Shown here one piece after another: positions 1,957 to 58,230 of a DNA stretch of 64,000 nt. The position numbers were made by a program, and so were the translations under genes. This DNA comes from an uncultured beta proteobacterium. GTDB taxonomy: Bacteria > Pseudomonadota > Gammaproteobacteria > Burkholderiales > SG8-39. The notes beneath the pieces were generated by a model that was given only the letters and a program-made list of their open reading frames with translations, was not told the origin of the DNA and made no database searches. Where the stretch lies: the NCBI GenBank assembly GCA_963735025.1, contig CAVTJG010000020.1, positions 64,502-128,501 of the forward strand, in the 5' to 3' direction. Positions within the stretch are counted from its first letter, which is position 1. The number at the start of each line of letters is the position of its first letter.

Positions 1957-1970
1957 GCAACGCGCATGCC
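1957..1970 (-). promoter_or_regulatory. sigma-54 (-24/-12) promoter candidate for dodecin
   Basis: The reverse strand reads GGCATGCGCGTTGC (GG-N10-GC with GGCAYG and TTGC). The -12 C lies 41 nt before the dodecin ATG. Confidence 0.7.
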
Positions 1971-2091
1971 TGCGGGAGGCAGGAGACGCTTTTGAACAAC
2001 GCCCGTTCTCTCGCGGGGCTGGCGCACCTTTCTCCGGCACTTCGGTTCCGGTCTGCGCGACCGGGGTTTCGCGCGGCAACTCGCCGACCGT

Positions 2092-2520
2092 TCATTCGAG
2101 CATGGGCAGCGCTGCCAGCGCAGTGGCCACGAGGATCGGCACCTCGAGGGTGTCCCAGGGGAGCACGACGTGGCGGTCGGCGACCTTGAGCACGACGTCA
2201 CCCGACACCAGCTCGTGGCTCACCTTGCCATCGTTGTCGTACATCACGTCCTCGATGTTGCCGATCCGGTTGCCTTTCTCGTCGACCACCAAGGTGCCGA
2301 GCAGCATGCTCGCGCGCCGCGTGCGCGGCCGGTCGTTGTCCGCGCTCCACAACTCGAGCTCGCAACGCATGTGCCTGATCGCGTCCTGGGTGTCTTCGTG
2401 CCACCGTCGCTGCAAGAATTGCAGCGCGAACGGTAACAATTTCCGTCCGTTTGCCGCGGCGCGCAGCACGGCATCGGGTGCGCGAAGGTGCACACGCAAT
2501 GCCTTTGTTATAAGCTTCAT
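2092..2520 (-). CDS. PRC-barrel domain protein
   Basis: Internal Met ([10 protein letters not shown]) of ORF 2092..2682. The C-terminal [34 protein letters not shown] is PRC-barrel-like. Confidence 0.7.
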
Positions 2521-2606
2521 CGCACGGCCTCGAGATAGTCGAAACTTTCCATCAACCGCGGTTCCAGTCTGGCCGTGCCGGGGCGACCCGGCGCGCACGA
2601 TGGACG

Positions 2607-5600
2607 ATGGCGCGATCCAAGCCCAGGAAAGTGACGCAGCGGCGCACTCCGACTGCAAAGCACCCGACCGCGCGCGCTGCACGCAAGCGAACGCCGGGCA
2701 AGGGCGCAGCGCGTCCGGTGCGCGCGGCGCCGCGATCGAACCCCGGCAAGGGGCGCGCGGGCAAGGACCAGGTCATGCCGGTGGTCGGCCTGGTCGCCTC
2801 CGCCGGCGGGCTCGATGCCTTCAAGCGCTTCTTCCAGGGCATGCCGCCGGACAGCGGCATCGCGTTCCTGGTGATTCCGCACCTCGATCCGCGCCGCGAG
2901 AGCCTGATGGCGTCGCTACTCGCCCGGCAGACGACGATGCAGGTCGTGGAAGCCGGCGAGGGCATGCGGCTCGCGCCCGACCACGTGTGGGTCATCCCGC
3001 CCAACGCGAACCTCGCGGTGCGCGACGGCGTACTGCACCTGGGCCCACCGAGCCTGGGCGCGAGCCAGACGCCGATCGATCCGTTCCTGCGGTCGCTCGC
3101 CGAAGACCAGCTGGAAAGGGCGATATGCGTGGTCCTGTCCGGCACCGGCTCGTACGGCACGATCGGCCTGAAGGCGGTCAAGGCGCACGGGGGCATGGCG
3201 ATGGTGCAGGATCCGCGCACCGCCGAGTACGACCAGATGCCGCAGAGCGCGATCGCGACCGGCCTCGCAGACCACGTGCTGGCGCCCGAGGACATGCCGC
3301 AGGCGCTCCTCGCCTACGTGCGCCGGTTTCTGGTCGGCACCCTCGCCGTGGACGCGCCGACCGCGGCCTCGAGCATCGCGCACCTCCACGCGCTGCTGCG
3401 GTCCCGGACCAAATTCGACTTCCGGGCCTACCGCCAACAGATGCTGCTGCGGCGTGTGCACCGCCGCATGGGCCTGCGCCATGTCGATGAGCTGGCCGCC
3501 TACCTCGCGCTGCTCGACACGGACCCGACCGAGCTCCAGCAGCTCTCCCGGGACCTCCTGATCAGCGTGACGAGCTTCTTTCGCGATCCGGAGATGTTCC
3601 AGGTGCTCGAGACGCAGGTCGTACCCGAGCTGCTGCGCGACCACGCGTCCGATGCCCCGTTGCGGGCGTGGGTCGTCGGGTGCGCCACGGGCGAAGAGGC
3701 GTATTCGATCGCCGTGGTGCTGATCGAGCAGCTCGCTGCCGCGGAGCGCTCGTGCCCCGTGCAGGTTTTCGGCACCGACGTCGATCAGCATGCGCTCGAG
3801 GTCGCTCGTCGCGGTGTCTATCCGGACGGCATCGCCGCTGACGTCTCGGCGGAACGGCTGAGGCGCTTTTTCGTCCGCTCGGACGATCACGGCTGGCAGG
3901 TGAGCCGGCAGCTGCGCGAGTCTGTGCTGTTCGCGCCCCAAAACGTGCTGACCGACGCGCCGTTCTCCCGGCTCGATCTCGTGAGCTGCCGCAATCTGCT
4001 CATCTACCTGGAGCCCGGGATCCAGCAGAAGCTGCTTTCGGTGCTGCATTTCGCGCTCAAGGGAGGCGGCTACCTGGTGCTGGGTCCGTCGGAAAGCGCT
4101 GGCCGGCACGCCGATGCGTTCACCGTCGTTTCCAAGAAATGGCGCATCCATCGGCGGAGCAGCGCATCGCCGCGCGAGCGGGCCGAAATCCCGATCGTGG
4201 GCGGCGGGCAGCGCCTTGCGCCGGGCATCCCGTCCGGTGGGCCGCAGGCACGCGCGGCGTCGCTTTCCGAGCTGCTGCGTGAGCGGCTCGTCGAACAGTA
4301 CGCTCCTGCGGCCGTCGTGGTGGACCGGCAGCAGCGGGTCCAGCATTTTTCCGGGCCGACCCACCTTTACCTGGAGCAGCCGAGCGGCCCGCCGACGCAG
4401 GACCTGCTCGTGCTCGCCCGCAGCGGCCTGCGCGTCCGCGTGCGCGCCGCAATCCAGAAAGCGCGGCGGGAGGGGGCGCACGTCAGCCTGTCCGGAGCGT
4501 ACGTGAAGCGCAACGGCGCCAGTGTCCCGGTGCGCGTGACGGCGCAGCCGCTGCGCGCAGCGCGTGACCACGACGACATGCTGCTGGTCGCGTTCGAGGA
4601 CGACATGCGCCCGCCGCGCGCCGCTCGGGAGGGCGCCGCCATCGACGAGGAGCTGGTGCAGCAGCTCGAGCAGGCCCTGCAAGGCTCGCGCGACGAGCTG
4701 CAGGGCACCATCGAGGAGCTGGAAAGCTCGAACGAGGAGCTCAAGGCCTCCAACGAGGAGGTCATGTCGATGAACGAAGAGCTCCAGTCGGCGAACGAGG
4801 AGCTGGAGACCTCGAAGGAGGAGCTGCAGTCGCTCAACGAGGAGCTCTTGACCGTCAACGGCCAGCTGCGCGACAAGGTCGTGGAGCTCGAGGAGGCGAG
4901 CGGCGACATGGCGAACCTGCTCGCGAGCACGGACTTCGCCGTGCTGTATCTCGGCACCGACCGCCGGATCAAGCGCTTCACGCCGGCCGCGACGCGGCTC
5001 TTCAACCTGATCGAGACGGACGTTGGCCGGCCGATCGGCGACATCACGTCGCGCTTCGCGGATCCGGGGCTCGATGACGATGTGCAGAAGGTGCTGCAGT
5101 CGTTCGTGCCGGCGACGCGCGAAGTGCAGGCGACCGACGGGACGTGGCACCTGCGTCGCGTCACGCCCTACCGGACGTCCGATGACCGCGTCGCAGGCGT
5201 GGTGGTCACGTTCGCGGACGTGACGCTGCTCAAGGAGGCCGAGACTTCGCTGCGCGCGGCGACCGCGCAACTCGAGGAGCGGGTGGCCGATCGCACCGAG
5301 GCCCTCCGGGAGGAGATGGCGCGCCACCAGCATACCGCGGAGACGCTGCGTCGCGAGCGCGACTACGTGAGCGCCGTGCTCGACACGACCGCCGCTGCGG
5401 TCTACGTGCTGGACCGCGACGGTACCTTCGTGCGGGCGAACCGCGGCTGCGCCGAGCTCGCCGGGTACCCCGCCGAAGAACTGGTCGGAAAGGGATTCGC
5501 GGAACTGCTGCTGCCGCCCGAAGACCGACCGGAGTTCGCTCGCACCATCGCGGGGTTTCCGCAAGGCGGCACGCCGCAGCGCGGGGAGGGCGTCTGGGTC

Positions 5601-6440
5601 GCGCGGGATGGATCGCGCCGACAGGTATCGTGGACCGCCGTCGCGCTGCGCGACGGCCCGGAGCGATCCGGCCTCATCGTCGGCAGCACGCTGGACATCA
5701 CCGAGCAACGCGAGTCCGAGGCGCGTGCGCGCCAGCGCCTCGAGGAGCTCGCCGCGCTGTACCGCATCCACACTGCGAACGAGCTGGCGGCCACGCTCGC
5801 TCACGAGCTCAACCAGCCCCTCAACGCGATCGTGAGCTTTGGCGAGGCCAGCCTGCAGCTCCTGAAGTCGGGCGCGAACGAGCCCGCCCGGATCACGGCC
5901 AACCTGGAGAAGATCGGCGAGCAGGCGCTGCGCGCCGGCCGCTTTATCGGCGAGCTGCGGCGCTTCGTCGCGCAGGGCGAGATCGAGCGGTGTGCCGTGG
6001 ACTTGAACCGGCAGGTCCGCTCCGCATGCTTGCTCGTCGGACCGCTCGCGCACCGCCACAACATCCGCGTCCTGCTCGGCCTCGCCGACGCGCTCCCGCC
6101 GGTCGATGCCGCGGAAATTCAAATCGAGCACGTCGTCACCAATCTCGTGCGCAACGCCATCGATGCCGTCGCGGAAGCCGGTCTGCTGGCAGGAGAGATC
6201 CGGGTCGGCACGCGCGCGACCCCCGACGCCATGGCGTGCGTCACCGTCACGGACAACGGACCCGGGCTCAGCGGGAAAACTCTGGAGCGGCTGTTCGAGC
6301 CGTTCTTCACCACCAAGCCGACGGGGCTCGGCATGGGCTTGCGCCTCAGCCGCTCGATCGTCGAGGCGCACGGCGGCCGTCTGTGGGCGGAGCCCGGCCC
6401 GGGCGGCATGTTCTCCTTCACGCTGCCGTTCGCCAAGTGA
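2607..6440 (+). CDS. CheB methylesterase-CheR methyltransferase-PAS-histidine kinase hybrid sensor (1277 aa)
   Basis: ORF 2607..6440. Elements in order: CheB-like VVGLVASAGGLDAFKRFF; a CheR SAM-methyltransferase region (VVGCATGEEAYSIA); the heptad coiled coil ELESSNEELKASNEEVMSMNEELQSANEELETSKEELQSLNEEL; PAS regions; the H-box LAHELNQPLNAI; and the HATPase DNGPGL...GLGMGL. The start may be an internal Met (e.g. 2775). Confidence 0.9.
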   Translation: MARSKPRKVTQRRTPTAKHPTARAARKRTPGKGAARPVRAAPRSNPGKGRAGKDQVMPVVGLVASAGGLDAFKRFFQGMPPDSGIAFLVIPHLDPRRESLMASLLARQTTMQVVEAGEGMRLAPDHVWVIPPNANLAVRDGVLHLGPPSLGASQTPIDPFLRSLAEDQLERAICVVLSGTGSYGTIGLKAVKAHGGMAMVQDPRTAEYDQMPQSAIATGLADHVLAPEDMPQALLAYVRRFLVGTLAVDAPTAASSIAHLHALLRSRTKFDFRAYRQQMLLRRVHRRMGLRHVDELAAYLALLDTDPTELQQLSRDLLISVTSFFRDPEMFQVLETQVVPELLRDHASDAPLRAWVVGCATGEEAYSIAVVLIEQLAAAERSCPVQVFGTDVDQHALEVARRGVYPDGIAADVSAERLRRFFVRSDDHGWQVSRQLRESVLFAPQNVLTDAPFSRLDLVSCRNLLIYLEPGIQQKLLSVLHFALKGGGYLVLGPSESAGRHADAFTVVSKKWRIHRRSSASPRERAEIPIVGGGQRLAPGIPSGGPQARAASLSELLRERLVEQYAPAAVVVDRQQRVQHFSGPTHLYLEQPSGPPTQDLLVLARSGLRVRVRAAIQKARREGAHVSLSGAYVKRNGASVPVRVTAQPLRAARDHDDMLLVAFEDDMRPPRAAREGAAIDEELVQQLEQALQGSRDELQGTIEELESSNEELKASNEEVMSMNEELQSANEELETSKEELQSLNEELLTVNGQLRDKVVELEEASGDMANLLASTDFAVLYLGTDRRIKRFTPAATRLFNLIETDVGRPIGDITSRFADPGLDDDVQKVLQSFVPATREVQATDGTWHLRRVTPYRTSDDRVAGVVVTFADVTLLKEAETSLRAATAQLEERVADRTEALREEMARHQHTAETLRRERDYVSAVLDTTAAAVYVLDRDGTFVRANRGCAELAGYPAEELVGKGFAELLLPPEDRPEFARTIAGFPQGGTPQRGEGVWVARDGSRRQVSWTAVALRDGPERSGLIVGSTLDITEQRESEARARQRLEELAALYRIHTANELAATLAHELNQPLNAIVSFGEASLQLLKSGANEPARITANLEKIGEQALRAGRFIGELRRFVAQGEIERCAVDLNRQVRSACLLVGPLAHRHNIRVLLGLADALPPVDAAEIQIEHVVTNLVRNAIDAVAEAGLLAGEIRVGTRATPDAMACVTVTDNGPGLSGKTLERLFEPFFTTKPTGLGMGLRLSRSIVEAHGGRLWAEPGPGGMFSFTLPFAK

Positions 6441-7090
6441 CGCCGGTCGTCCACGTCGTCGACGACGACGCCGCAGTTCGCCAGGGGCTCGAACAGATGC
6501 TGGGCGCCGCAGGATTCGAGGTGCGCGTCTTTGCGAGCGCGGAGGCATTTCTCGCCGCGTGCAAGGAGGGGTGCACGGGGTGCGTAGTGCTCGACGTCGC
6601 GATGCCCGGAATGAGCGGACCCGAGCTGCAGGCAGCCCTGCTCGACAGGGGTCTCGACCTGCCGATCGTGTTTCTGACCGGGTACGGTGACGTTCCCACG
6701 TCGGTGCGCGCGATGAAGGCCGGCGCGGTGGATTTTCTCGAGAAGCCGGTGGCCGGCGCGACCCTCATCGCGACGGTGCGCAACGCCATGGCGCTCGAGG
6801 CGCGCCGGCACGAGGATCAAGCGCTGCGCGCCGTTGCGCAGGCCCGCTACGCAAGGCTCACCGGGCGCGAGCGTGAGATCATGGCCCTCGCGGTCCGCGG
6901 CCTCGCCAACAAGGAGATCGGCAAGCAGCTCGGACTCAGCCACCGGACGGTCGAGATCCACCGCGCGCGCGCCATGCGCAAGATGCATGCCGCGACGCTG
7001 CTCGAGCTCGCGCGGGCGGCGGCGCTCTGCGGGATCGCAGAGGGCTCCGGCGGCGCGCCCCCTGCCGCAGCCGATCCCGCCGCCAGCTGA
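6437..7090 (+). CDS. FixJ/LuxR-family response regulator
   Basis: A GTG at 6437 overlaps the kinase stop (GTGA). REC domain: VVHVVDDDAAVRQGLEQML...VLDVAMPGMSG. LuxR HTH: LTGREREIMALAVRGLANKEIGKQLGLSHRTVEIHR. Confidence 0.9.
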   Translation: MTPVVHVVDDDAAVRQGLEQMLGAAGFEVRVFASAEAFLAACKEGCTGCVVLDVAMPGMSGPELQAALLDRGLDLPIVFLTGYGDVPTSVRAMKAGAVDFLEKPVAGATLIATVRNAMALEARRHEDQALRAVAQARYARLTGREREIMALAVRGLANKEIGKQLGLSHRTVEIHRARAMRKMHAATLLELARAAALCGIAEGSGGAPPAAADPAAS

Positions 7091-10743: not shown

Positions 10744-10795
10744 CGGGGTAGCGTAGATCGCGCGCGGTGGCTGGCGAAATGCGTGCGCGCACCGA

Positions 10796-10811
10796 TACGT
10801 GCTGGCACGTA
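10796..10811. promoter_or_regulatory. 16-bp near-palindrome TACGTGCTGGCACGTA (copy 2)
   Basis: Identical to 7112..7127. It lies about 55 nt upstream of the putative kinase start, between the CBS gene and the kinase. Confidence 0.3.
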
Positions 10812-10861
10812 GGGAACGTACCTGCGCACGCGGCTGCGCCGCGCTTGCGGACGCTCCGCCG

Positions 10862-11296
10862 CTAGCGTGCCGGCTGCGAGATCGCCTCGACCGCCGCACC
10901 CGCGGGCTCGGGCCCGGTGGCGATGGCGATGTCGCCGAGCGAGACGATGCCGACGAGCCGCTTCTGGCGGCTGAGCACCGGCAGCCGGCGCACCTGCAGC
11001 TTGGCCATGTTGGCCGCAACGTCGCCGATCTCGTCGTCTTCGAAGCAGTATTTCATGTCTTCCGTCATGACGTCGCGCACCACGGTATCGGGGCCCTTGC
11101 CCGCAGCCACGGCACGAATCGCGATATCGCGATCGGTGATCATCCCGACCAGGCGGTCGTTCTCACCGACCGGCAGGACTCCCATGTCGGACTCTGCCAT
11201 CATCCGCGCCGCCTCGTGGATGCTTTGCTGCGGGCTCGCCAGCCGGACGTCGCGGGTCATCACATCGCCTATGTTCACCGGTCTCTCCTCTTTCAT
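10862..11296 (-). CDS. CBS domain pair protein
   Basis: Internal Met (MKEERPVNIGDVMTRDV) of ORF 10862..11512. Two CBS repeats: VMTRDV...LPV and VMTEDM...LPVL. Confidence 0.9.
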   Translation of the reverse strand: MKEERPVNIGDVMTRDVRLASPQQSIHEAARMMAESDMGVLPVGENDRLVGMITDRDIAIRAVAAGKGPDTVVRDVMTEDMKYCFEDDEIGDVAANMAKLQVRRLPVLSRQKRLVGIVSLGDIAIATGPEPAGAAVEAISQPAR

Positions 11297-12150: not shown

Positions 12151-12164
12151 GCACGCCATATGCC
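12151..12164 (-). promoter_or_regulatory. weaker sigma-54-like promoter for the ABM-DksA operon
   Basis: The reverse strand reads GGCATATGGCGTGC (GG-N10-GC, with -12 GTGC). The -12 C lies 43 nt before the ABM ATG, matching the 41-46 nt spacing class. Confidence 0.4.
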
Positions 12165-12347
12165 CGGAGAAGGGTGGCGGCACGTTCGGCCGAGGGTCTC
12201 GGGCACGGCGCTTGCACCCGATTCGTGCACCCGATTCGACGTGCATCGACTGGGAAACCGCATGGCCGAGAAAATCGAGCGGAAATTCACGGTGAAGCCC
12301 CAGGAGGGCCCACCGCCGGGATAATCTGCCCGGTGGCGGGGACACCT

Positions 12348-18577: not shown

Positions 18578-18591
18578 GCAAGCCCCATGCC
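18578..18591 (-). promoter_or_regulatory. sigma-54 promoter candidate for the DUF883-like gene
   Basis: The reverse strand reads GGCATGGGGCTTGC, about 130 nt upstream of the ATG at 18447. Confidence 0.6.
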
Positions 18592-19372: not shown

Positions 19373-19386
19373 GCAATCCGCATGCC
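19373..19386 (-). promoter_or_regulatory. sigma-54 promoter candidate for the coiled-coil gene pair
   Basis: The reverse strand reads GGCATGCGGATTGC. The -12 C lies 41 nt before the ATG at 19331. Confidence 0.7.
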
Positions 19387-21347: not shown

Positions 21348-21361
21348 GCAACCCGCATGCC
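21348..21361 (-). promoter_or_regulatory. sigma-54 promoter candidate for the glycine-zipper gene
   Basis: The reverse strand reads GGCATGCGGGTTGC. The -12 C lies 43 nt before the ATG at 21304. Confidence 0.7.
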
Positions 21362-21486: not shown

Positions 21487-21501
21487 TGGCACGCGGTTTG
21501 C
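21487..21501 (+). promoter_or_regulatory. sigma-54 promoter candidate (full consensus) for hypothetical gene 21582
   Basis: TGGCACGCGGTTTGC matches TGGCACG-N4-TTGC at every specified position. It is divergent from the promoter at 21348..21361. Confidence 0.7.
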
Positions 21502-34886: not shown

Positions 34887-34900
34887 GCAAACGTCATGCC
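34887..34900 (-). promoter_or_regulatory. sigma-54 promoter candidate for the sugar dehydrogenase operon
   Basis: The reverse strand reads GGCATGACGTTTGC. The -12 C lies 42 nt before the ATG at 34844. Confidence 0.7.
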
Positions 34901-34940: not shown

Positions 34941-35281
34941 CCGGGCGTCGGCTGCCCGGTCTTCGGCCTGCAGAAATTGTCGGCGCCACCACCGGTAACG
35001 CTTACACGGAGCCTCGGCCGACCGGAAATGGCCGAGGCTGGTCGGAGCGCATCCTGGCGGCAACAAGACCTGCGCGCAAGGCTCTTTCTCTTGCGAAATA
35101 CAGGCACGCCCCGGGCGTCGGCTGCCCGATCTTCGGCAAGCGGAAATTGCCGGCGCCACCACCGGTAACGCTTACGCGGAGCCTCGGCCGACCGGAAATG
35201 GCCGAGGCTGGTCGGAGCGCATACTGGCGGCAAGAAGACCTGCGCGCGAGGCTCTCGCGGTGCGAAATGCAGGCACGCCCC
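34941..35281. repeat. tandem direct repeat, 2 x ~170 bp (~90% identical by eye), each with a perfect 10-bp dyad
   Basis: Copy 1 starts CCGGGCGTCGGCTGCCCG at 34941 and copy 2 at 35111. Dyads AGCCTCGGCC-N10-GGCCGAGGCT lie at 35010..35039 and 35180..35209. Confidence 0.85.
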
Positions 35282-35285
35282 TTGC
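35272..35285 (+). promoter_or_regulatory. sigma-54 promoter candidate for the act (ACIII) operon
   Basis: GGCACGCCCCTTGC lies at the right edge of repeat copy 2, 120 nt upstream of the actA ATG. Confidence 0.65.
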
Positions 35286-51594: not shown

Positions 51595-51608
51595 GCACGC
51601 CGTGTGCC
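51595..51608 (-). promoter_or_regulatory. weak sigma-54-like site upstream of cydA
   Basis: The reverse strand reads GGCACACGGCGTGC (GG-N10-GC, with -12 GTGC), about 128 nt before the cydA ATG. Confidence 0.25.
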
Positions 51609-51798
51609 CGCCACTGGTGCTTCGGTTTCACTAGCCCGGCACGACTGACCGACGGCCGGGGCCGGTAATCCCTACACGCGCCGGTAACGCCTACTGGCCC
51701 GCATTCGACGCGGCATGCATGGCGCGGGCCGCGTCCTGCTCGATCTGCGCACCTTTCCGTACGCAAATACATGCGCGTTCAGCACGAATCCGGCAGCG

Positions 51799-51812
51799 GG
51801 CACGCCGATTGC
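51799..51812 (+). promoter_or_regulatory. sigma-54 promoter candidate for sodB
   Basis: GGCACGCCGATTGC lies on the coding strand, 71 nt upstream of the sodB ATG. Confidence 0.65.
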
Positions 51813-51883: not shown

Positions 51884-52531
51884 ATGTATTCGACGACCAA
51901 GAAAGAAGCTGTCAACGAAAGCGTTTTCGAGCTCGCACCCCTTCCGTTCGCCGAAGATGCTCTCGAACCGATTATCTCGAAACGGACCGTCCAGCTACAC
52001 CACGGCAAGCATCATCGCAAATATGTCGATACGCTGAACGAACTGGTCAAAGGGACCGAGTTCGAGACTCTTGCGCTCGACGACGTGGTCGCGCGCGCCG
52101 CGAACAACCCGGCCCACCAGTCGATCTTCAACAATGCCGGCCAGAACTGGAATCACCACTTCTACTGGCGCAGCCTCGCGCCCGGCGGCGCGCGTCCCAC
52201 GGGCAAGCTGCTCGAGCGCCTCGATCGTGATCTCGGCGGATACGAGGCATTCGTCGAAGCCATGACCAAGTCGGCGACCGGCCAGTTCGGCAGCGGCTGG
52301 GCATGGCTTGCGCTCGACCGCGGCAAGCTGAAGGTGCTATCGACTGCCAATGCCGACACGCCGATCGCGCACGACGTGGCCCCGCTCCTCGCACTGGACG
52401 TCTGGGAGCACGCGTACTACCTCGACTATCAGAATCGCCGCGAAGAGCACGTCAAGAAGGTGATCGACCGCCTCCTGAACTGGGAATTCGCCGACATGAA
52501 CCTGACCGAGGCCGGCTCGCGATCGAGGTGA
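51884..52531 (+). CDS. sodB: Fe/Mn superoxide dismutase
   Basis: ORF 51884..52531. Motifs LHHGKHH, FNNAGQNWNHHFYW and DVWEHAYYLDYQNRR. Confidence 0.95.
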   Translation: MYSTTKKEAVNESVFELAPLPFAEDALEPIISKRTVQLHHGKHHRKYVDTLNELVKGTEFETLALDDVVARAANNPAHQSIFNNAGQNWNHHFYWRSLAPGGARPTGKLLERLDRDLGGYEAFVEAMTKSATGQFGSGWAWLALDRGKLKVLSTANADTPIAHDVAPLLALDVWEHAYYLDYQNRREEHVKKVIDRLLNWEFADMNLTEAGSRSR

Positions 52532-53214: not shown

Positions 53215-54132
53215 TTATCCGCCTTGCCTGCGCGGCGTCGCGACATCAGCCTGCGAGTTGAGGCGATCCGGCGCGACATTGAGCTTCGCCAGAGTCTGCG
53301 GATTGAGCCAGCCAGTCATCTCCAGGCCCTCTTGCTGCTGGAACTTGTAGACCGCTGCTTTCGTCTGTGGACCCCAAGTGCCGTCTATGCTGCCGACGTC
53401 GAACCCCCTCTCGTGCAATGCCTGCTGCGCCGCTCGAATCGTCCGCGGATTGTCGCGGACGTATTCGGGCCGCTGCTCGCTTTCAGGCCGCACAGCATTC
53501 CGGGACTGCATTCCGGAGTTTCCATGCAACTGCACCTGGAGCTTCGCCAGCGTGTCCGGCTCCAGCCGGCCGCTCGCAAACAGGCCCTCGCGCTCCTGGA
53601 AATCGATCAATGCGGCTCTGCTCTTCGGACCCCATATGCCGTCCACGCCACCGACGTCGAACCCCTGGTCTTGCAGGGCCTGCTGTGCCGCGCGCACGGT
53701 ATCCGGATCGTAACGATCGTACGTCATGGACGCACTGCGGGACGCTTCCGTGGTCCGGGAGTGCATGGCGCCGGCGGATTCCTCTGTGGTCCGAGACTGC
53801 ATATGCTGGTCGCTCTGCCTGACCTCGAGCTTCGCCAGGGTCGCCGGCTCGAGCCGGCCGCTGGCAAACAGCCCTTCGCGTTCCTGGAATCTTTGCAGTG
53901 CCGCACGTGTCTGGGGACCCCAGACTCCGTCGATTTCGCCTTCGTACAGGCCCCGCTGCTGGAGTGCCTGTTGCGCTTCGCGCATCGTGCTCGAGTCATA
54001 CGTCGAATAAGCACTTTGGGATTTCTGTTTCTGGGATTCCTGTTTCATGCTCTGCGACGGATCGGCTGCGAGAGCCGGTCCCACGAGTGCAACTGCGGTG
54101 GTCGTCGCCAGGGCGATTTGCTTCAATTTCAT
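53215..54132 (-). CDS. secreted protein with three peptidoglycan-binding (PG_binding_1-like) repeats
   Basis: Internal Met (MKLKQIALATTTAVALVGPALA) of ORF 53215..54723. The module AQQALQ..G...G..DG.WGP..RAAL..FQ..EGL..SG.L...TLAKL occurs three times. Confidence 0.8.
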   Translation of the reverse strand: MKLKQIALATTTAVALVGPALAADPSQSMKQESQKQKSQSAYSTYDSSTMREAQQALQQRGLYEGEIDGVWGPQTRAALQRFQEREGLFASGRLEPATLAKLEVRQSDQHMQSRTTEESAGAMHSRTTEASRSASMTYDRYDPDTVRAAQQALQDQGFDVGGVDGIWGPKSRAALIDFQEREGLFASGRLEPDTLAKLQVQLHGNSGMQSRNAVRPESEQRPEYVRDNPRTIRAAQQALHERGFDVGSIDGTWGPQTKAAVYKFQQQEGLEMTGWLNPQTLAKLNVAPDRLNSQADVATPRRQGG

Positions 54133-54242: not shown

Positions 54243-54256
54243 GCACCTGGCATGCC
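54243..54256 (-). promoter_or_regulatory. weaker sigma-54-like site upstream of the PG-binding gene
   Basis: The reverse strand reads GGCATGCCAGGTGC (-12 GTGC), about 110 nt before the ATG at 54132. Confidence 0.3.
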
Positions 54257-54314: not shown

Positions 54315-54647
54315 TCAGCCCGCGTTGCCGTGAGTTTCCTTCCACCGCTTGAGCTGGCGCTCCATAGCGTTGAAGGCGTCGCGCACTGCGACGTGCAGGT
54401 CGCAATGTGCATTCATGTCGCCGGGCCTGTTGCTCACACCAAGCTCGGTTCCCGGAACCCTCACCTCGACCCGGACTTCGTACGGATTTCCCTTGTGCTG
54501 GCTCTGATGCGGCGCGGCCACGAAGACGCGGCAGGTCGTGATCCCCGCGTAGAGGCGCTCGAGCTTGTCGATGCGTCCCCGGATGTCCGCCTCGGCCGCC
54601 GGAGATCGGTCGGTATCGACGAACGATATCTCCACGGTCGCGGGCAT
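54315..54647 (-). CDS. HPF/RaiA-family ribosome-associated (hibernation) protein, short form
   Basis: ORF 54315..54647. From memory, the overall pattern (ISFVDTDRSPAAEADIRGRIDKLERLY...YEVRVEVRVPG...AVRDAFNAMERQLKRWKE) fits the family. It lies 3 nt downstream of the PRC-barrel gene. Confidence 0.7.
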   Translation of the reverse strand: MPATVEISFVDTDRSPAAEADIRGRIDKLERLYAGITTCRVFVAAPHQSQHKGNPYEVRVEVRVPGTELGVSNRPGDMNAHCDLHVAVRDAFNAMERQLKRWKETHGNAG

Positions 54648-54650
54648 CCT

Positions 54651-55352
54651 TCAACCGCCGTACTCGGGGCTCTTCTTGACCGTGTCCCGGCTGAGACGAA
54701 GATGCACACTGTGGCTTGGCCAATCGACGTGCTCGATCTGGCTCGGCGCGACCAGCACGGTCTTGCCGGGCAGCCAGTTGCGCGTGTCGACGAGGAGATA
54801 GCGGATCGCCCAGCTTTCCAGGTCGATCAATAGGTCGACCACATGACCGATCGAACCGTCAGTCACCTCGATCCCATACCCGCTTACCTCGACGCTCGAA
54901 CGCAGATGCGTGTGGCCGACTTCGCCGGCCTCCAATTTCCGCGTCGCGGGACTCGTCGCCTCGGGCGCTCGCATCGCGGGTGCGGCGCCGGCGAGCGGCA
55001 CCGCGCCGGGACCCCAGAGGTACGGCCCCATCCAGTAGTAGGGATAGCCGAAGTGCTCGGCGAGCGCGGTCTCGTACTGGCGCGACACGGGGCGGTCGGT
55101 CTCGACGCCAGGACTTTCTTCGACCTGCTTGCGCGTGAGCTTCGCGGCGATGGCGTCGTCGGGCGATTGCGTGGCATCGAGCGACGCGGGCGAAATCAGA
55201 ACGTCCCGCCCGCTTAGCCAGCCGCCCGTGGCGACTACCAGATAGCGCACCGCCCAGCGTTCATCGTCGAAATAGAGATCGCGAACCTTGCCGATCTCGC
55301 CGTCGGTCGCGCGCAGCGTCCGGCCGATGATGGCCTCGCCTCGCTTGTCCAT
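54651..55352 (-). CDS. tandem PRC-barrel domain protein
   Basis: Internal Met (MDKRGEAIIG) of ORF 54651..55733. Two PRC-like modules: TDGEIGKVRDLYFDDERWAVRYLVV and TDGSIGHVVDLLIDLESWAIRYLLV. Confidence 0.8.
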   Translation of the reverse strand: MDKRGEAIIGRTLRATDGEIGKVRDLYFDDERWAVRYLVVATGGWLSGRDVLISPASLDATQSPDDAIAAKLTRKQVEESPGVETDRPVSRQYETALAEHFGYPYYWMGPYLWGPGAVPLAGAAPAMRAPEATSPATRKLEAGEVGHTHLRSSVEVSGYGIEVTDGSIGHVVDLLIDLESWAIRYLLVDTRNWLPGKTVLVAPSQIEHVDWPSHSVHLRLSRDTVKKSPEYGG

Positions 55353-55428
55353 CCGGGCCTCCTTTCCGATGCTGATCACCCGCCGCTCGGCAATGCGCGG
55401 GCGCTTTGCCTTGACGGACGATGAGGCC

Positions 55429-55442
55429 GCAAGCGACGTGCC
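55429..55442 (-). promoter_or_regulatory. sigma-54 promoter candidate for the PRC-barrel/HPF operon
   Basis: The reverse strand reads GGCACGTCGCTTGC, 76 nt before the ATG at 55352. Confidence 0.65.
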
Positions 55443-55535
55443 CGGGGAAAGCGTCGAGGGTAAGGCTTGCCGAACGGTCGGTAACCCTTGCCGGCAAAGC
55501 GCCTCTGGCGCCGGCCCGGCACGTTCCCTATCTCG

Positions 55536-55549
55536 GGCACGAGCAATGC
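55536..55549 (+). promoter_or_regulatory. sigma-54-like promoter (one mismatch) for the Cys-rich four-helix gene
   Basis: GGCACGAGCAATGC (-12 ATGC) lies 35 nt upstream of the ATG at 55585. It is divergent from the site at 55429..55442. Confidence 0.45.
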
Positions 55550-55584: not shown

Positions 55585-55953
55585 ATGGTCCCAATGGACT
55601 TGATCACCCCCGACATGGAGCGTTGCGCCGCCGCGTGCGCCGAATGCCACAGCGCCTGTTTGCGCGCGGCGACGAGCGGCAATCTAGGTGCCGGTGACTT
55701 CGGACTCGCTTCCGAGCATTTCCGTCTCCTCATGGATTGCGCCGACCTGTGCGCGACGACCGGTGACTTTCTGCTCCGCGGCTCGGCGTTCCATGAACGC
55801 GTATGCGGCGCCTGCGCAGAGGTCTGCGCTGCATGTGCTCAGAGTTGCTCGCAGTTTGAAGGCCGCGACGCGCAGGACGTCATGCGCAGGTGTCGCGAAG
55901 CGTGCGACCTCTGCGCGAAACGGTGCCGCGCGGCAGCCGGCGCGATTCGCTGA
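55585..55953 (+). CDS. Cys-rich four-helix-bundle (DUF326-like, copper-binding type) protein
   Basis: Tail of ORF 55288..55953. Repeated C-x3-C-x3-C type motifs: CAAACAECHSAC, CADLCATT, CGACAEVCAACAQSC, CREACDLCAKRC. The start could be 55585, 55594 or 55615. Confidence 0.7.
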   Translation: MVPMDLITPDMERCAAACAECHSACLRAATSGNLGAGDFGLASEHFRLLMDCADLCATTGDFLLRGSAFHERVCGACAEVCAACAQSCSQFEGRDAQDVMRRCREACDLCAKRCRAAAGAIR

Positions 55954-55972: not shown

Positions 55973-56314
55973 TCAACCCCTCTGACGAGGCTTCTCGCCC
56001 GGATGCCGAGGCTGATCCTGCTCTGGAGCTGGTGGACAAGCGGTGTCCCATCCGTGCGGATTTCGGCAGTCGGTGTCCTCCAGCCCGCGCTCGACGTCGT
56101 CTTTCGCCTGCTCAACGACCTCGCGCTGCGGCGCGCTGCGCTTACCCCGTTTCGCGAGCTCGGTCGGCGATTCGTCGCGCTCGTGTGGCAGCTTCACGCG
56201 CTCAGCCCCGATTGCTGGATCCTGCCCTGCGGCCCCGCCCGCTTCCGGATTCGGGCGTAGTACGCGATCGGGCCTCGTGCCCCGCGACGGCCGTTTGCGT
56301 GGATGCCTCCCCAT
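55973..56314 (-). CDS. small hypothetical protein with KLPHERDES motif
   Basis: ORF 55973..56314. The KLPHERDES...VVEQAKDDVERGLEDTD pattern recalls small conserved betaproteobacterial proteins. The true start may be the GTG at 56197. Confidence 0.45.
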   Translation of the reverse strand: MGRHPRKRPSRGTRPDRVLRPNPEAGGAAGQDPAIGAERVKLPHERDESPTELAKRGKRSAPQREVVEQAKDDVERGLEDTDCRNPHGWDTACPPAPEQDQPRHPGEKPRQRG

Positions 56315-56327: not shown

Positions 56328-56341
56328 GCAAATGGCGTGCC
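56328..56341 (-). promoter_or_regulatory. sigma-54 promoter candidate for the KLPHERDES gene
   Basis: The reverse strand reads GGCACGCCATTTGC. The -12 C lies only 13 nt before the ATG at 56314. Confidence 0.55.
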
Positions 56342-56359
56342 CGTGCAGGGGCGCGGTCG

Positions 56360-58192
56360 CTACCGAAGGGTCATGGCATACGCGAGCGAGACTCCGCTCG
56401 TGATCAGTCCGACATGGCTGAGCGCTTGAGGGAAATTGCCGAGAAACGCGCCGTTCACGGGGTCGATCTGCTCGGGCAGAAGCCCGAGAGGATTGGCGCG
56501 CGCGCACACTGCTTCGTACATTTCGAGCGCGTCGTCGATCCGCCCCTGCAGCGCAAGGTTGTCCACCAGCCAGAAGCTGCAGAGCAGGAACGCGCCCTCT
56601 TGGTCCGGCAGCCCGTCCGGCAATTCGTGCCGCAGGTAGCGGTAGACTAACCCGTTTGCCGGCGACAGCCGCTCGGTAATCGCTGCAGTGGTCGCCTTCA
56701 TGCGCGGATGATCTGCAGGAATTAGGCGGCGCAGCGGCAGGGCGAGCACGCTCGCGTCGAGCGCATCGCCGCCCAGGTGCGCGGCGAACGCCCCGAGCCG
56801 TTCGTTCCATGCTCCCTCGACAATCGTATCGCGCATGCGCGCCGCGTCCGCGCGCCAGTCCGCGACGTCCCCGGTAAGCCCCAGTGCCTCGGCGACACGC
56901 GCGCCGCGGTCCACCGCGACCTGACACATTGCAGCGGAGTAGGTGAACGGTCGCGCCACTGAGCGTACCTCCCAGATGCCCTGGTCGGGCGCATCCCATG
57001 CGTCGCGCGCCATCTACGCGAGCGGCCGCAGGCGCGCCCATAGCGGGTCGTCGATCGTGCCGCCACGCCTGGCCCACAGATACGCACAGTCGAGAATCTC
57101 GCCGAAGATGTCGTGCTGGCGCTGCGCGGCCGCGGCATTTCCCCAGCGCACCGGCGCCGAGCGGCGGTAGCCTTCCAACCTCTCGTCCACGCGCTCGGCA
57201 GGTGCTTCCAGGCCGTCGAGCGTGTACAGGACGCGGGGATGCCCACCGCGCTCGACGACGTCGAGCACCCAGGCGAGGAAACCCGCCGATTCGTGATTGA
57301 GGCCGATGCGACTCATTGCGTAGACGCTGAACGCCGCGTCACGAACCCAGGCATAGCGATAGTCCCAGTTGCGCACGCCTCCGATCGTCTCGGGCAAGGA
57401 GGAGGTCGGCGCCGCAACCATGGCCCCGTTCTCGAAGTGATCAAGCAGTTTCAAGGTGATGGCCGATCTTCGCACCAGCGAAACGTGCGGGCCCTCGTAC
57501 TGGATGTTCGACTGCCAGCGCTCCCAAGCCTCGACCGTCGCTCGATAGATCGCCTCCGGGTCCACGCCCTGCGCCCGGCGCCCCGCGGTGTGCCAGCGGA
57601 GCACAAGATGGTTCCGGTCGCCGCGCGCCAGGGCGATGCTAGTTCGCGGCCCCTCAATTGGGAAATCTGTGTCGAGCTGCAGTCCGAAGTCGGAGCGTGC
57701 GGAACACCGGATGGACAGGCCGTCGCCGCGCCGCTCGGTCGCGGCGCCGCCCCATGGCTCGAGCTCGACGCGCAAACGCACGCGCCCCTCCACAACCTCG
57801 ATCATGCGCAGCAGCTCGCCCCGTGCCGCCTTGACGTCCTCGGTCAGGTCCGCGCCCGACTGGAGCGTCATCATGTCGGTGATGCGCGCGATGCCGCCGT
57901 GCGCGTCGGCAAGTTCGGTGACCAGTACGCCGGTGTCGCCCAGATAGCGCTGGCGGGACGCGGTGAGCCCCTCCGGCGCAATCGTAAAACCGCCGCCGCG
58001 CGTGCGATCGAGGAGCCCGGCGAAGATCGGCGGATCATCGAACTGGGGCGCGCACAGCCACGAGACCGTGCCATCGCGCCCGACGAGCGCTGCCGTCTCG
58101 CCATCGCCGATCAAGCCATGATCTGCGATCGGAAGATAGCCATCCTGGTATGCGAGCGGCGCGAAATCGTCTGTCATCCGGATACAGTGCAA
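56360..58192 (-). pseudogene. GH15-family glycoside hydrolase (glucoamylase/trehalase-like) interrupted by an in-frame TAG
   Basis: ORFs 57014..58192 and 56360..57013 are in the same frame and abut: ...DPLWARLRPLA-TAG-MARDAWDAPDQGIWEVR... Together they form one GH15-like protein of about 610 aa. Confidence 0.8.
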
Positions 58193-58216
58193 TTGGCGTT
58201 CCCATCGGCTAGGGCG

Positions 58217-58230
58217 GGCATGTCAGTTGC
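58217..58230 (+). promoter_or_regulatory. sigma-54 promoter candidate for the CPA2 antiporter gene
   Basis: GGCATGTCAGTTGC lies on the coding strand, 132 nt upstream of the ATG at 58363. Confidence 0.55.

What the first reader, a model, noticed from the sequence alone, without database searches (positions are those of the whole stretch)
1957..58230. Eleven exact sigma-54 promoter cores, all intergenic and correctly oriented: an unusually dense RpoN regulon spanning stress-type proteins, SOD and respiratory operons
Reading the intergenic regions on both strands, I found GGCA[CT]G-N4-TTGC, the core of the TGGCACG-N4-TTGCW -24/-12 consensus, at these sites:
- 1957-1970(-) GGCATGCGCGTTGC, upstream of dodecin.
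- 18578-18591(-) GGCATGGGGCTTGC, upstream of the DUF883/YqjD-like gene.
- 19373-19386(-) GGCATGCGGATTGC, upstream of the coiled-coil pair.
- 21348-21361(-) GGCATGCGGGTTGC, upstream of the glycine-zipper protein.
- 21488-21501(+) GGCACGCGGTTTGC, upstream of the hypothetical gene at 21582.
- 34887-34900(-) GGCATGACGTTTGC, upstream of the sugar dehydrogenase operon.
- 35272-35285(+) GGCACGCCCCTTGC, upstream of actA.
- 51799-51812(+) GGCACGCCGATTGC, upstream of sodB.
- 55429-55442(-) GGCACGTCGCTTGC, upstream of the PRC-barrel/HPF operon.
- 56328-56341(-) GGCACGCCATTTGC, upstream of the KLPHERDES protein.
- 58217-58230(+) GGCATGTCAGTTGC, upstream of the CPA2 antiporter.

Every hit points at the adjacent gene. 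From base composition alone (G and C about 0.34 each, A and T about 0.16 each) I estimate fewer than one chance occurrence in the 128 kb of two-strand sequence.

One-mismatch sites also lie in front of the CBS, ABM-DksA, DUF326-like, PG-binding and cydA genes. rpoN and an NtrC-type activator are encoded in the same window.

General-stress/hibernation-type genes, SOD and respiratory complexes are classically controlled by RpoS/SigB/EcfG or FNR/ArcA-type systems. Broad sigma-54 control of them would therefore be unusual. Caveat: I scanned intergenic DNA by eye, not the coding sequence exhaustively.
Basis: partly seen in the sequence, partly recalled or inferred. Interest (0 to 1): 0.8.

Follow-up and report, generated by a model that had tools for sequence, protein, structure and literature searches.

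The report
Self-promoted sigma-54 stress-gene island
An uncultured betaproteobacterium carries a non-housekeeping sigma-54 gene with its own sigma-54 promoter and conserved enhancer, plus about 20 further sigma-54 promoters in front of stress, ribosome-hibernation, superoxide-dismutase and respiratory genes, and similar islands surround the poorly understood second rpoN gene of Burkholderia and Ralstonia.

Summary
GGCAYG-N4-TTGC occurs 17 times (0.72 expected). Fifteen hits are intergenic, where 0.09 are expected. A weight matrix trained only on related loci finds 21 sites, 20 of them intergenic, and all 21 promoter-candidate sites (20 intergenic matrix hits plus exact-core 13142) point at the adjacent gene.

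This rpoN lies outside the housekeeping lptB-rpoN-hpf-ptsN context and belongs to a separate RpoN clade. In seven related loci, rpoN keeps a TGGCAYR-N4-TTGC promoter. Six of them also keep a GTAA-N3-TTRCCG element 93-104 bp upstream, which I read as an enhancer. The same element sits in the sodB/cydA, PRC-HPF/DUF326 and sugar-dehydrogenase/actA intergenic regions.

Promoters recur before orthologous dodecin, SOD, CBS, DUF883 and glycine-zipper genes in relatives. The rpoN2 loci of B. multivorans and Ralstonia show similar promoter-dense islands; the B. multivorans one is annotated with stress genes.

Best reading: an NtrC-type response regulator (21909-23285) switches on an accessory sigma-54 that drives a stress, dormancy and respiration regulon.

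This is a new variant of a known kind. I could not show that a second, housekeeping rpoN exists in this genome.

The parts
210..1709 (+). rpoN: sigma-54 with activator-interacting, core-binding and DNA-binding domains and a canonical RpoN box (ARRTVTKYR). It is not in the lptB-rpoN-hpf-ptsN context.
   Evidence: Pfam; RpoN box; trees; housekeeping context in L008
165..178 (+). Sigma-54 promoter of rpoN itself (tGGCATGCATCTTGC), 31 nt before the ATG
   Evidence: Conserved in 7 of 7 related loci (alignment A1).
58..72 (+). Candidate enhancer (UAS) GTAAGAATTGCCGAA, 100 bp upstream of the rpoN -24 element and 38 bp from the divergent kinase promoter
   Evidence: One of only two conserved blocks in alignment A1. 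Spacing is 93-104 bp in 6 loci.
14..27 (-). Sigma-54 promoter for the CHASE hybrid histidine kinase that lies left of the window
   Evidence: L001; equivalent site in L074
1957..1970 (-). Sigma-54 promoter of dodecin (1706-1915)
   Evidence: conserved in L002 and L074
11343..11356 (-). Sigma-54 promoter (GGTATG variant, 20.0 bits) of the CBS-domain gene 10862-11278
   Evidence: ortholog in L072 has GGTACG-N4-TTGC at the same distance
12151..12164 (-). Weak candidate promoter (12.2 bits) for the ABM-DksA operon (11386-12107)
   Evidence: Two mismatches to the core, so low confidence.
12202..12215 (+). Sigma-54 promoter of the CDP-alcohol phosphatidyltransferase gene 12378-12974
   Evidence: 20.1 bits
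13142..13155 (+). Exact core match upstream of an unknown 407-aa gene plus AsmA (13204-16434). The flanks fit poorly (below 12 bits).
   Evidence: Lower confidence.
18578..18591 (-). Sigma-54 promoter of the DUF883/ElaB-like membrane-anchored protein (18169-18447)
   Evidence: homolog in L072 has a site upstream
19373..19386 (-). Sigma-54 promoter of two small coiled-coil proteins (19134-19331 and 18670-19143)
21348..21361 (-). Sigma-54 promoter of the glycine-zipper protein (20669-21304)
   Evidence: The divergent pair is conserved in L070.
21488..21501 (+). Sigma-54 promoter of the hypothetical 105-aa gene (21582-21899)
   Evidence: 20.3 bits; conserved in L070
21909..23285 (-). NtrC-family enhancer-binding protein: receiver domain (Asp52), AAA+ domain with Walker A GESGTGKE and GSFTGA loop, Fis-type HTH
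   Evidence: Pfam; motifs; orthologs 61-63% identical lie next to rpoN in L003 and L064
23559..23572 (+). Candidate promoter (GGAACG variant, 15.2 bits) of the NarJ-like / molybdopterin oxidoreductase operon (23715-30653)
34887..34900 (-). Sigma-54 promoter of the three-subunit sugar dehydrogenase operon (gluconate-2-DH subunit 3, GMC oxidoreductase, cytochrome c; 31048-34844)
34991..35005 (-). UAS copy GTAAGCGTTACCGGT, 98 bp from the dehydrogenase promoter
35161..35175 (-). UAS copy GTAAGCGTTACCGGT, 104 bp from the actA promoter, in the second copy of a 170-bp tandem duplication
35272..35285 (+). Sigma-54 promoter of the multihaem cytochrome (actA-like) gene, followed by a run of co-oriented genes (35406-~47400), mostly not annotated here, that ends in haem-copper oxidase fragments
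51595..51608 (-). Candidate promoter (14.5 bits) of cydA/cydB (cytochrome bd, fragmented)
51661..51694 (-). Two UAS copies (GTAGGGATTACCGGC and GTAGGCGTTACCGGC), 112-131 bp from the sodB promoter
51799..51812 (+). Sigma-54 promoter of Fe/Mn superoxide dismutase (51884-52531)
   Evidence: SOD ortholog in L072 has an exact site at the same distance
54243..54256 (-). Candidate internal promoter (14.3 bits) of the peptidoglycan-binding protein gene (53215-54132)
55429..55442 (-). Sigma-54 promoter (best score, 21.7 bits) of the PRC-barrel / HPF operon (54315-55379)
55460..55495 (+). Two UAS copies lying between the divergent PRC-HPF and DUF326-like promoters
55536..55549 (+). Candidate promoter (12.7 bits) of the Cys-rich DUF326-like gene (~55585-55953)
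56328..56341 (-). Sigma-54 promoter of the small 'KLPHERDES' protein (55973-56314; start codon uncertain)
   Evidence: a homolog near Ralstonia rpoN2 is also preceded by a sigma-54 site
58217..58230 (+). Sigma-54 promoter of the cation:proton antiporter gene (58363-59598)
   Evidence: a cation:proton antiporter in the B. multivorans rpoN2 island lies in an operon behind a sigma-54 site

Best explanation
The window holds a dedicated sigma-54 regulatory module and its regulon.

Shown:
- A sigma-54 gene lies outside the housekeeping locus.
- It has its own -24/-12 promoter and a conserved element about 100 bp upstream.
- One NtrC-family response-regulator activator is encoded in the window.
- There are about 20 correctly placed -24/-12 promoters.
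- The promoter positions and the gene set are conserved across relatives.

Inferred mechanism:
1. A stress, redox or energy signal is sensed by the linked histidine kinases. The candidates are the CHASE hybrid kinase divergent from rpoN, which is itself sigma-54-driven, and the kinase at 9649-11019.
2. The kinase phosphorylates the activator (21909-23285).
3. The activator binds the GTAA-N3-TTRCCG enhancer and remodels sigma-54 holoenzyme closed at the rpoN promoter.
4. Sigma-54 levels rise, either through positive feedback or through a cascade started by a housekeeping sigma-54.
5. The raised sigma-54 level, together with the activator, fires the other promoters.

The regulon covers:
- ribosome hibernation (HPF)
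- superoxide dismutase
- small membrane and stress proteins (DUF883, glycine zipper, coiled-coil proteins, the KLPHERDES protein, dodecin, PRC-barrel, CBS, DUF326)
- envelope and lipid functions (CDP-alcohol transferase, AsmA, peptidoglycan-binding protein)
- a cation:proton antiporter
- alternative respiratory routes (the actA-like multihaem cytochrome / oxidase cluster, cytochrome bd, a cytochrome-c-linked sugar dehydrogenase, possibly a molybdoenzyme)

Functionally this resembles a general-stress or dormancy sigma factor, but built on sigma-54.
For: Motif statistics.

Orientation and spacing.

Pfam identities of rpoN, the activator and the targets.

Non-housekeeping status:
- L008 shows lptB-rpoN-hpf-ptsN-hprK, whereas the window's rpoN is flanked by a hybrid kinase and dodecin.
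- The window's RpoN forms a separate clade.
- Motif density is 0.27/kb in the window and 0.28-0.38/kb in L002 and L003, against 0-0.05/kb (one locus, L038, at 0.10) in the remaining ~65 fetched rpoN loci, most of them Rhodocyclales housekeeping-type.

Self-promoter and enhancer:
- The self-promoter is conserved in all 7 loci and the enhancer in 6 (degenerate in L064), in otherwise unalignable DNA.
- Enhancer spacing is 93-104 bp.
- L038, not used for training, has its own GTAAAAGTTACCG palindrome upstream of rpoN.
- The enhancer is about 9 times denser in the window than in 1.14 Mb of control loci. GGYAA-N3-YTAC gives 9 hits against 0.25 expected.

Activator: orthologs sit directly beside rpoN in L003 and L064, and the protein has intact functional motifs.

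Regulon conservation.

Analogous islands at rpoN2 of B. multivorans and Ralstonia.

Experimental precedents: Ralstonia rpoN2 expression is abolished in an rpoN1 mutant (PMC4371752). B. pseudomallei RpoN2 is needed for katE in late stationary phase (PMC4745423).
Against: - No transcription data exist for this organism.
- I could not show that the genome also has a housekeeping rpoN, so this could be the only sigma-54 of a lineage that relocated the gene.
- The strong enhancer is present at only 4 of about 12 promoter-bearing intergenic regions, and at two of them it lies only 25-79 bp from the nearest -24 element. One activator acting through this site therefore cannot explain all the promoters.
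- No exact dyad is shared by all the upstream regions.
- Assigning the enhancer to this particular activator rests on linkage alone.
- In a rough NJ tree the window's RpoN does not cluster with Ralstonia or Burkholderia RpoN2, so the parallel may be convergence.
- Several target genes are fragmented, so part of the regulon may be decaying, or the assembly may carry indel errors.
Confidence: 0.65

Rival explanations
1. These are real sigma-54 promoters, but the rpoN here is the organism's only, general-purpose sigma-54. The window simply samples a lineage in which sigma-54 with several activators encoded elsewhere controls many genes, as in Myxococcus or Geobacter. There is no dedicated accessory module.
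For:
- In the NJ tree the window clade sits nearer the housekeeping group than the classical RpoN2 clade does.
- The RpoN box is canonical.
- Most promoters lack the strong enhancer, which implies that other activators exist.
Against: - The gene lies outside the otherwise conserved lptB-rpoN-hpf-ptsN locus.
- It is only about 48% identical to the housekeeping RpoNs of related orders.
- It carries a sigma-54 promoter of its own in all 7 related loci. None of the ~53 complete RpoN genes of the housekeeping-type clade that were scanned has one. A sole sigma-54 that needs sigma-54 for its own expression would be a fragile design.
- Cultured relatives with the same island architecture (B. multivorans, Ralstonia) do have two copies (PMC4371752).
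Confidence: 0.22
2. The 14-mer is not a promoter. It is the binding site of some other DNA-binding protein, or part of a dispersed intergenic repeat (REP- or MITE-like), and only resembles the sigma-54 consensus by chance.
For: - The base before GG is mostly G rather than the canonical T at target sites.
- One intergenic region contains a 170-bp tandem duplication that includes a site-like sequence.
Against: - Flanks and the N4 spacer differ between sites, so there is no extended repeat.
- The element is asymmetric and always points at the neighbouring gene, at promoter-like distances.
- The invariant positions are exactly the GG and GC dinucleotides 10 bp apart.
- It co-occurs with an rpoN gene and an activator gene in every locus examined, and is rare in the ~65 other rpoN loci fetched (0-0.05 per kb; one at 0.10).
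- Permuted motifs are not enriched.
Confidence: 0.04
3. Two-tier cascade with promoter discrimination. A housekeeping sigma-54 reads the canonical TGGCA promoter of this rpoN. The accessory sigma-54 then preferentially reads the GGGCA-type promoters of the regulon.
For: - T precedes GG in 7 of 7 rpoN promoters but in only 2 of 33 target promoters in the window and its close relatives.
- Ralstonia rpoN2 is strictly rpoN1-dependent (PMC4371752) and also has TGGCAC upstream.
Against: - The 7 rpoN promoters are orthologous, so they are not independent observations.
- The RpoN box that reads the -24 element is unchanged.
- In the B. multivorans island the base before GG is mixed.
- B. pseudomallei RpoN2 complements an E. 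coli rpoN mutant (PMC4745423), which argues for ordinary specificity.
Confidence: 0.12

Closest known systems
RpoN2 of Ralstonia solanacearum (RSp1671) and Burkholderia (B. pseudomallei chromosome 2; B. multivorans third replicon)
   Same: - A sigma-54 gene outside the lptB-rpoN-hpf-ptsN locus.
- A sigma-54-type promoter directly upstream of it, consistent with the published rpoN1-dependence (PMC4371752).
- NtrC-family activators 55-59% identical to the window's activator are encoded nearby.
- The surrounding island has sigma-54 sites at about 0.3 per kb (B. multivorans 9 exact cores in 31 kb; Ralstonia 7 matrix hits in 24 kb) in front of small, often stress-type genes such as BON, DUF892, PRC-barrel, CBS, DUF1328, glycine-zipper, a KLPHERDES homolog and an antiporter.
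- An experimentally shown stress target exists: katE (PMC4745423).
   Different: - The window's RpoN is only 44-45% identical to these proteins and forms a separate clade in a rough tree.
- The GTAA-N3-TTRCCG enhancer was not detected upstream of Ralstonia or B. multivorans rpoN2.
- The window's regulon adds large respiratory operons (the actA-like cytochrome/oxidase cluster, cytochrome bd, a sugar dehydrogenase).
- Coexistence with a housekeeping rpoN is unproven here.
Specialised RpoN paralogs of alphaproteobacteria (Cereibacter sphaeroides RpoN1-4; Bradyrhizobium sp. DOA9 plasmid RpoNp; Mesorhizobium rpoN2)
   Same: Accessory sigma-54 copies with restricted regulons and dedicated activators. 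DOA9 RpoNp is reported to influence stress-adaptation genes (PMC13207237).
   Different: - They belong to a different class of bacteria.
- Their regulons are flagellar, nif or loosely 'stress' related, and are not a compact island of general-stress genes.
- I did not find a self-promoter plus enhancer architecture described for them in the passages I read.
General stress regulons under RpoS (gammaproteobacteria and betaproteobacteria), EcfG (alphaproteobacteria) or SigB (Firmicutes)
   Same: The gene content overlaps: HPF, SOD, Dps/ferritin (in L002), DUF883/ElaB, glycine-zipper, entericidin, BON, PRC-barrel, CBS, dodecin and trehalose-related enzymes.
   Different: - The promoter class is -24/-12.
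- Initiation should therefore depend strictly on an ATP-hydrolysing activator, giving a tight off state and a switch-like on state, instead of control by sigma-factor competition or anti-sigma factors.
Low-oxygen-activated (lxa) locus of Burkholderia cenocepacia
   Same: A large island of stress and persistence genes in a Burkholderiales genome.
   Different: Its shared motif is Anr/FNR-like, TGA-N6-TCA (PMC3721108), not -24/-12. It is a different regulatory system.

Membership tests
Sigma-54-dependent (-24/-12) promoter | Conserved GG and GC dinucleotides exactly 10 bp apart within TGGCAC-N5-TTGCW | tested here: met
   There are 17 exact GGCAYG-N4-TTGC matches. GG and TTGC are invariant in the alignment of 7 rpoN promoters. 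A matrix built from the relatives recovers the window sites. The base before GG is G, not T, at most target sites.
Sigma-54-dependent (-24/-12) promoter | Located upstream of a gene and co-oriented with it, at a short distance | tested here: met
   21 of 21 are co-oriented, 6 of 6 in the informative tandem regions, and the GC-to-start distance is 13-162 nt.
Sigma-54-dependent (-24/-12) promoter | Upstream activator sequence for an enhancer-binding protein, typically 80-150 bp upstream | tested here: inconclusive
   A conserved GTAA-N3-TTRCCG lies 93-131 bp upstream of the rpoN, sodB, actA and sugar-dehydrogenase promoters. It is absent or weak at about 8 other promoter regions.
Sigma-54-dependent (-24/-12) promoter | Transcription starts about 12 nt downstream of the GC and depends on rpoN and an activator | not testable with these tools
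   This needs 5'-end mapping and mutants. The organism is uncultured.
Sigma-54 (RpoN) protein | Region I (activator-interacting), core-binding domain, and DNA-binding domain with an RpoN box | tested here: met
   PF00309, PF04963 and PF04552 all score well above threshold. The RpoN box is ARRTVTKYR.
Housekeeping rpoN locus of Proteobacteria | Gene order lptB-rpoN-hpf-ptsN | tested here: not met
   L008 (Aromatoleum) shows ABC ATPase, rpoN, S30AE, EIIA-Ntr, HprK. The window has hybrid kinase, rpoN, dodecin. Its HPF gene is 53 kb away, in a PRC-barrel operon.
Burkholderiales RpoN2 | Coexists with a housekeeping rpoN1 in the same genome | not testable with these tools
Burkholderiales RpoN2 | Own expression is sigma-54-dependent (a sigma-54 promoter upstream of the gene) | tested here: met
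   Seen in the window, L002, L003, L064, L070, L072, L074 and L038, and in Ralstonia rpoN2.
Burkholderiales RpoN2 | Groups phylogenetically with Ralstonia and Burkholderia RpoN2 | tested here: not met
   In the NJ tree the Ralstonia and B. multivorans RpoN2 proteins cluster with L038, and the window's clade is separate. The tree is rough, built from distances and without support values.
NtrC-family bacterial enhancer-binding protein | Receiver domain, AAA+ sigma-54 interaction domain with a GAFTGA-type loop, and a C-terminal Fis-type HTH | tested here: met
   PF00072, PF00158, PF25601 and PF02954. Asp52, Walker A GESGTGKE and GSFTGA at residue 216.
RpoS / EcfG / SigB general stress regulon | Stress genes preceded by the cognate sigma-70-family promoter (for example EcfG GGAAC-N16-CGTT) | not tested
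   I did not scan for these motifs. The genes instead carry -24/-12 elements. Dual promoters are not excluded.

The most novel reading that the evidence does not exclude
In a lineage of Burkholderiales-like betaproteobacteria, and by extension in Burkholderia and Ralstonia, which carry rpoN2, an accessory sigma-54 acts as the master sigma factor of a general-stress, dormancy and low-energy programme. This is the functional counterpart of RpoS, EcfG or SigB. It would be switched on through an enhancer-dependent positive-feedback loop on its own gene, possibly with the entry promoter (TGGCA) distinguished from the regulon promoters (GGGCA). That would give the 'enigmatic' rpoN2 a function. It would also be the first general stress response in which every promoter is gated by an ATP-dependent activator.
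Probability: 0.35. Interest if true: 0.8.

Novelty: new variant of a known kind. Interest (0 to 1): 0.62.

Why it matters
Second copies of rpoN are widespread in Burkholderiales, including the pathogens B. pseudomallei, the B. cepacia complex and R. solanacearum. Their role is described as enigmatic (PMC4371752), with katE as the only firm target (PMC4745423).

This window, its metagenomic relatives and the B. multivorans and Ralstonia loci together yield a concrete, testable regulon, a promoter model, a candidate enhancer and a candidate activator. The regulon is enriched in hibernation, oxidative-stress, envelope and alternative-respiration genes. That points to persistence under starvation or hypoxia, which bears on chronic infection and survival in soil.

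Mechanistically, a stress regulon built on sigma-54 would be silent until an activator hydrolyses ATP. That logic differs from sigma-competition systems such as RpoS.

Tried and rejected
- **Universal enhancer.** An unbiased 4-mer dyad enrichment over 12 independent upstream regions gave nothing that survives multiple testing. I rejected a single rigid UAS shared by all promoters. The enhancer marks a core subset only.
- **HPF next to rpoN.** A tblastn search with the window's HPF found nothing in the other loci because the protein is too divergent. Pfam on L008 answered the question instead.
- **Intragenic hits 6978 and 10034.** They fall below 12 bits in the independent matrix and two chance hits are not surprising, so I treat them as chance. 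I did not check whether they are conserved in relatives.
- **lxa locus.** Rejected as the same system, because its motif is Anr/FNR-type.
- **YelR, the B. pseudomallei sigma-54-dependent regulator.** It is on chromosome 1 and unlinked to rpoN2, so it is not relevant.
- **Altered RpoN box.** Rejected as the explanation for the G-before-GG preference, because the box is canonical.
- **Rfam scan.** No hits behind the long leaders.
- **2025 comparative sigma-54 regulon paper.** None of six search terms (Betaproteobacteria, Burkholderia, superoxide, hibernation, general stress, two copies) occurs in it.
- **First GC3-threshold gene map.** It was too strict and was replaced by a self-trained codon model. 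That model still missed the DUF326-like gene and the small coiled-coil genes, which I added by hand.

Full report
**Observation**

The core GGCAYG-N4-TTGC occurs 17 times on the two strands of the window, against 0.72 expected from dinucleotide-preserving shuffles.

Six more were missed. Four of them are intergenic:
- 14-27(-)
- 165-178(+)
- 12202-12215(+)
- 13142-13155(+)

The other two are intragenic: 6978-6991(-) and 10034-10047(-).

I built the gene map from a self-trained codon model and corrected it by hand. On that map, 15 of the 17 hits lie in the 13% of the window that is intergenic. An intergenic-only simulation expects 0.09 hits. Three hundred permuted motifs of identical composition average 0.06 intergenic hits, maximum 2.

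**Independent recovery**

I built a 22-nt weight matrix from 24 sites found only in related loci from other organisms. It finds 21 window sites at 12 bits or more, and 20 of them are intergenic. Simulation expects 3.1. At 15 bits or more there are 16 sites against 0.8 expected.

The two intragenic core matches drop out, and so does 13142. New weaker candidates appear before these genes:
- the CBS gene (20.0 bits)
- the NarJ-like / molybdoenzyme operon
- cydA
- the peptidoglycan-binding gene
- a DUF326-like gene
- marginally, ABM-DksA

All 21 sites (the 20 intergenic matrix hits plus the exact-core site at 13142) are co-oriented with the next gene. That includes 6 of 6 in tandem-gene regions, where orientation is informative. 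The GC element lies 13-162 nt from the start codon.

**Genes**

Pfam identifies rpoN at 210-1709 and a single NtrC-type response-regulator activator at 21909-23285. The activator has Asp52, a Walker A motif and a GSFTGA loop.

The targets are:
- dodecin
- a CBS protein
- a CDP-alcohol phosphatidyltransferase
- an unknown gene followed by AsmA
- a DUF883-like anchored protein
- two coiled-coil proteins
- a glycine-zipper protein
- a hypothetical 105-aa protein
- a three-subunit sugar dehydrogenase
- cytochrome bd
- Fe/Mn SOD
- a PRC-barrel/HPF operon
- a peptidoglycan-binding protein
- a DUF326-like protein
- the small 'KLPHERDES' protein
- a cation:proton antiporter

L001 extends the window to the left. 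It shows that 14-27(-) precedes a CHASE hybrid histidine kinase.

**The rpoN is not the housekeeping copy**

A genome-collection scan with the RpoN protein returned 68 loci. The large Rhodocyclales group is about 48% identical to the window's RpoN. The one locus of that group whose flanks I annotated (L008) sits in the classical lptB-rpoN-hpf-ptsN-hprK context.

The window's protein groups with L002, L003 and L064, and with the metagenomic loci L070, L072 and L074 at 66-75% identity, in a separate clade. In these loci rpoN is flanked by hybrid kinases, dodecin, CBS, SOD and similar genes. In L003 and L064 it is flanked by an activator 61-63% identical to the window's.

Motif density is 0.27/kb in the window, 0.28/kb in L002 and 0.38/kb in L003. 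In the remaining ~65 fetched loci it is 0-0.05/kb, apart from L038 at 0.10.

**Self-promoter and enhancer**

I aligned the roughly 215 bp upstream of rpoN from seven loci. Only two blocks are conserved:
- TGGCAYR-N4-(C)TTGC, about 45 nt before the ATG
- GTAA-N3-TT(G/A)CCG further upstream

The second block lies 93-104 bp from the -24 element in six loci. L038, from another clade and not used for training, has its own GTAAAAGTTACCG palindrome about 70 bp upstream of its rpoN promoter.

The same element, first spotted by eye, gives 9 hits against 0.25 expected. In the window it occurs at these positions:
- 98 and 104 bp from the sugar-dehydrogenase and actA promoters
- 112-131 bp from the sodB promoter, which is 60-79 bp from the cydA candidate
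- as a pair between the divergent PRC-HPF and DUF326-like promoters

It is about nine times denser in the window than in 1.14 Mb of control loci. About eight other promoter regions lack it, and no exact dyad is shared by all of them. The enhancer therefore defines a core subset. That subset includes rpoN itself.

**Regulon conservation**

Sigma-54-type sites recur at matching distances before orthologous genes:
- rpoN (7 of 7 loci)
- dodecin (window, L002, L074)
- SOD (window, L072)
- CBS (window, L072)
- the DUF883 homolog (window, L072)
- the divergent glycine-zipper / hyp105 pair (window, L070)
- the hybrid kinase (window, L074)

The relatives add Dps/ferritin, DUF1328, entericidin, phospholipase D and other genes.

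**Link to known systems**

PLSDB holds the Ralstonia megaplasmid and Burkholderia third replicons.

In R. pseudosolanacearum GMI1000:
- rpoN2 has TGGCACAGCCTTTGC about 60 nt upstream.
- Two activators 55-57% identical to the window's lie nearby.
- A KLPHERDES homolog there is also preceded by a sigma-54 site.

In B. multivorans, rpoN2 sits among BON, DUF2795, DUF4142, DUF892, PRC-barrel, CBS, DUF3008, DUF1328, Ku/LigD, antiporter, DJ-1, PSD and TreY genes. That island has 9 exact core hits in 31 kb. Of the 13 matrix hits at 11 bits or more, 12 are intergenic.

Published work shows that Ralstonia rpoN2 expression is abolished in an rpoN1 mutant and that its role is 'enigmatic' (PMC4371752). It also shows that B. 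pseudomallei RpoN2 is required for katE expression at 48-72 h (PMC4745423).

A rough NJ tree places the window's clade apart from the Ralstonia and Burkholderia RpoN2 proteins. I therefore claim shared architecture, not orthology.

I found no paper describing a sigma-54 stress island. The library is incomplete, so this is weak evidence of novelty.

**Mechanism**

What is shown:
- the parts
- their positions
- their conservation

What is inferred:
- A kinase signal activates the response-regulator activator.
- The activator binds the enhancer and opens the rpoN promoter, giving positive feedback or a cascade from a housekeeping sigma-54.
- Raised sigma-54 plus the activator then fires the regulon.

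Open points:
- whether a second rpoN exists in this genome
- which activator serves the promoters that lack the enhancer
- what the signal is

**A curiosity**

T precedes GG in 7 of 7 rpoN promoters but in only 2 of 33 target promoters, which mostly have G. The rpoN promoters are orthologous, the RpoN box is canonical, and the B. multivorans island is mixed. I therefore give promoter discrimination a low probability.

**Verdict**

This is a new variant of a known kind: an accessory sigma-54 regulon. Interest is moderate to high, because it offers a testable function for rpoN2-type sigma factors.

Noticed in passing
window 45009-45452, 49083-49958, 50337-51450, 56360-58177, 18670-19143: Several genes are split into adjacent fragments or change frame: haem-copper oxidase subunit I, cytochrome bd subunits I and II, a GH15 glycosidase/trehalase-like gene and a coiled-coil protein. 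This could be indel errors in the metagenome assembly or real pseudogenisation of part of the regulon.
   Followed up: partly
window 34933-35255: A 170-bp tandem duplication (92% identical) lies in the dehydrogenase/actA intergenic region, and each copy carries one UAS. The upstream copy also holds a decayed duplicate of the actA promoter, GGCACGCCCCGGGC at 35103-35116, where the copy at 35272-35285 has GGCACGCCCCTTGC.
   Followed up: partly
window promoter sites; L002, L003, L064, L070, L072, L074: The base immediately before the -24 GG is T in all seven rpoN promoters but G in most target promoters (T in 2 of 33). This could reflect discrimination between two sigma-54 proteins, or just shared ancestry of the rpoN promoters.
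   Followed up: partly
window 6978-6991(-) and 10034-10047(-): Two exact core matches lie inside genes: a LuxR-type response regulator (antisense) and a histidine kinase (sense). The 14-mer at 6978 is identical to the rpoN promoter 14-mer at 165-178. Both score below 12 bits with the independent matrix.
   Followed up: partly
window 33116-33130: A strong UAS-like match (GTAGGGCTTGCCGAT, 18.4 bits) lies inside the GMC oxidoreductase coding sequence, with no sigma-54 site nearby.
   Followed up: no
window 2718-7090: A 1240-aa fusion protein (CheB methylesterase, CheR methyltransferase, PAS domains, histidine kinase) is followed by a LuxR/NarL-type response regulator. This is a second signalling system next to the sigma-54 module, and it has no sigma-54 promoter of its own.
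   Followed up: no
window 16557-18068: One 503-aa ORF combines a flavodoxin-like/FMN reductase domain with a UbiA prenyltransferase domain. It could be an unusual fusion or a frameshift-joined gene pair.
   Followed up: no
window 60503-61540 and 60001-64000: An IS110-family transposase sits where GC content drops from about 0.66 to 0.60. All the sigma-54 sites lie to the left of it, so this may be the edge of the island.
   Followed up: no
window 29868-30653: An ankyrin-repeat protein is encoded at the end of the molybdopterin oxidoreductase / cytochrome b561 operon.
   Followed up: no
window 23418-23430: A weak UAS-like sequence (GGTAGCCCTTACG, two mismatches to GGTAA-N3-TTACC) lies in the intergenic region upstream of the activator gene. 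It may hint at autoregulation of the activator.
   Followed up: no
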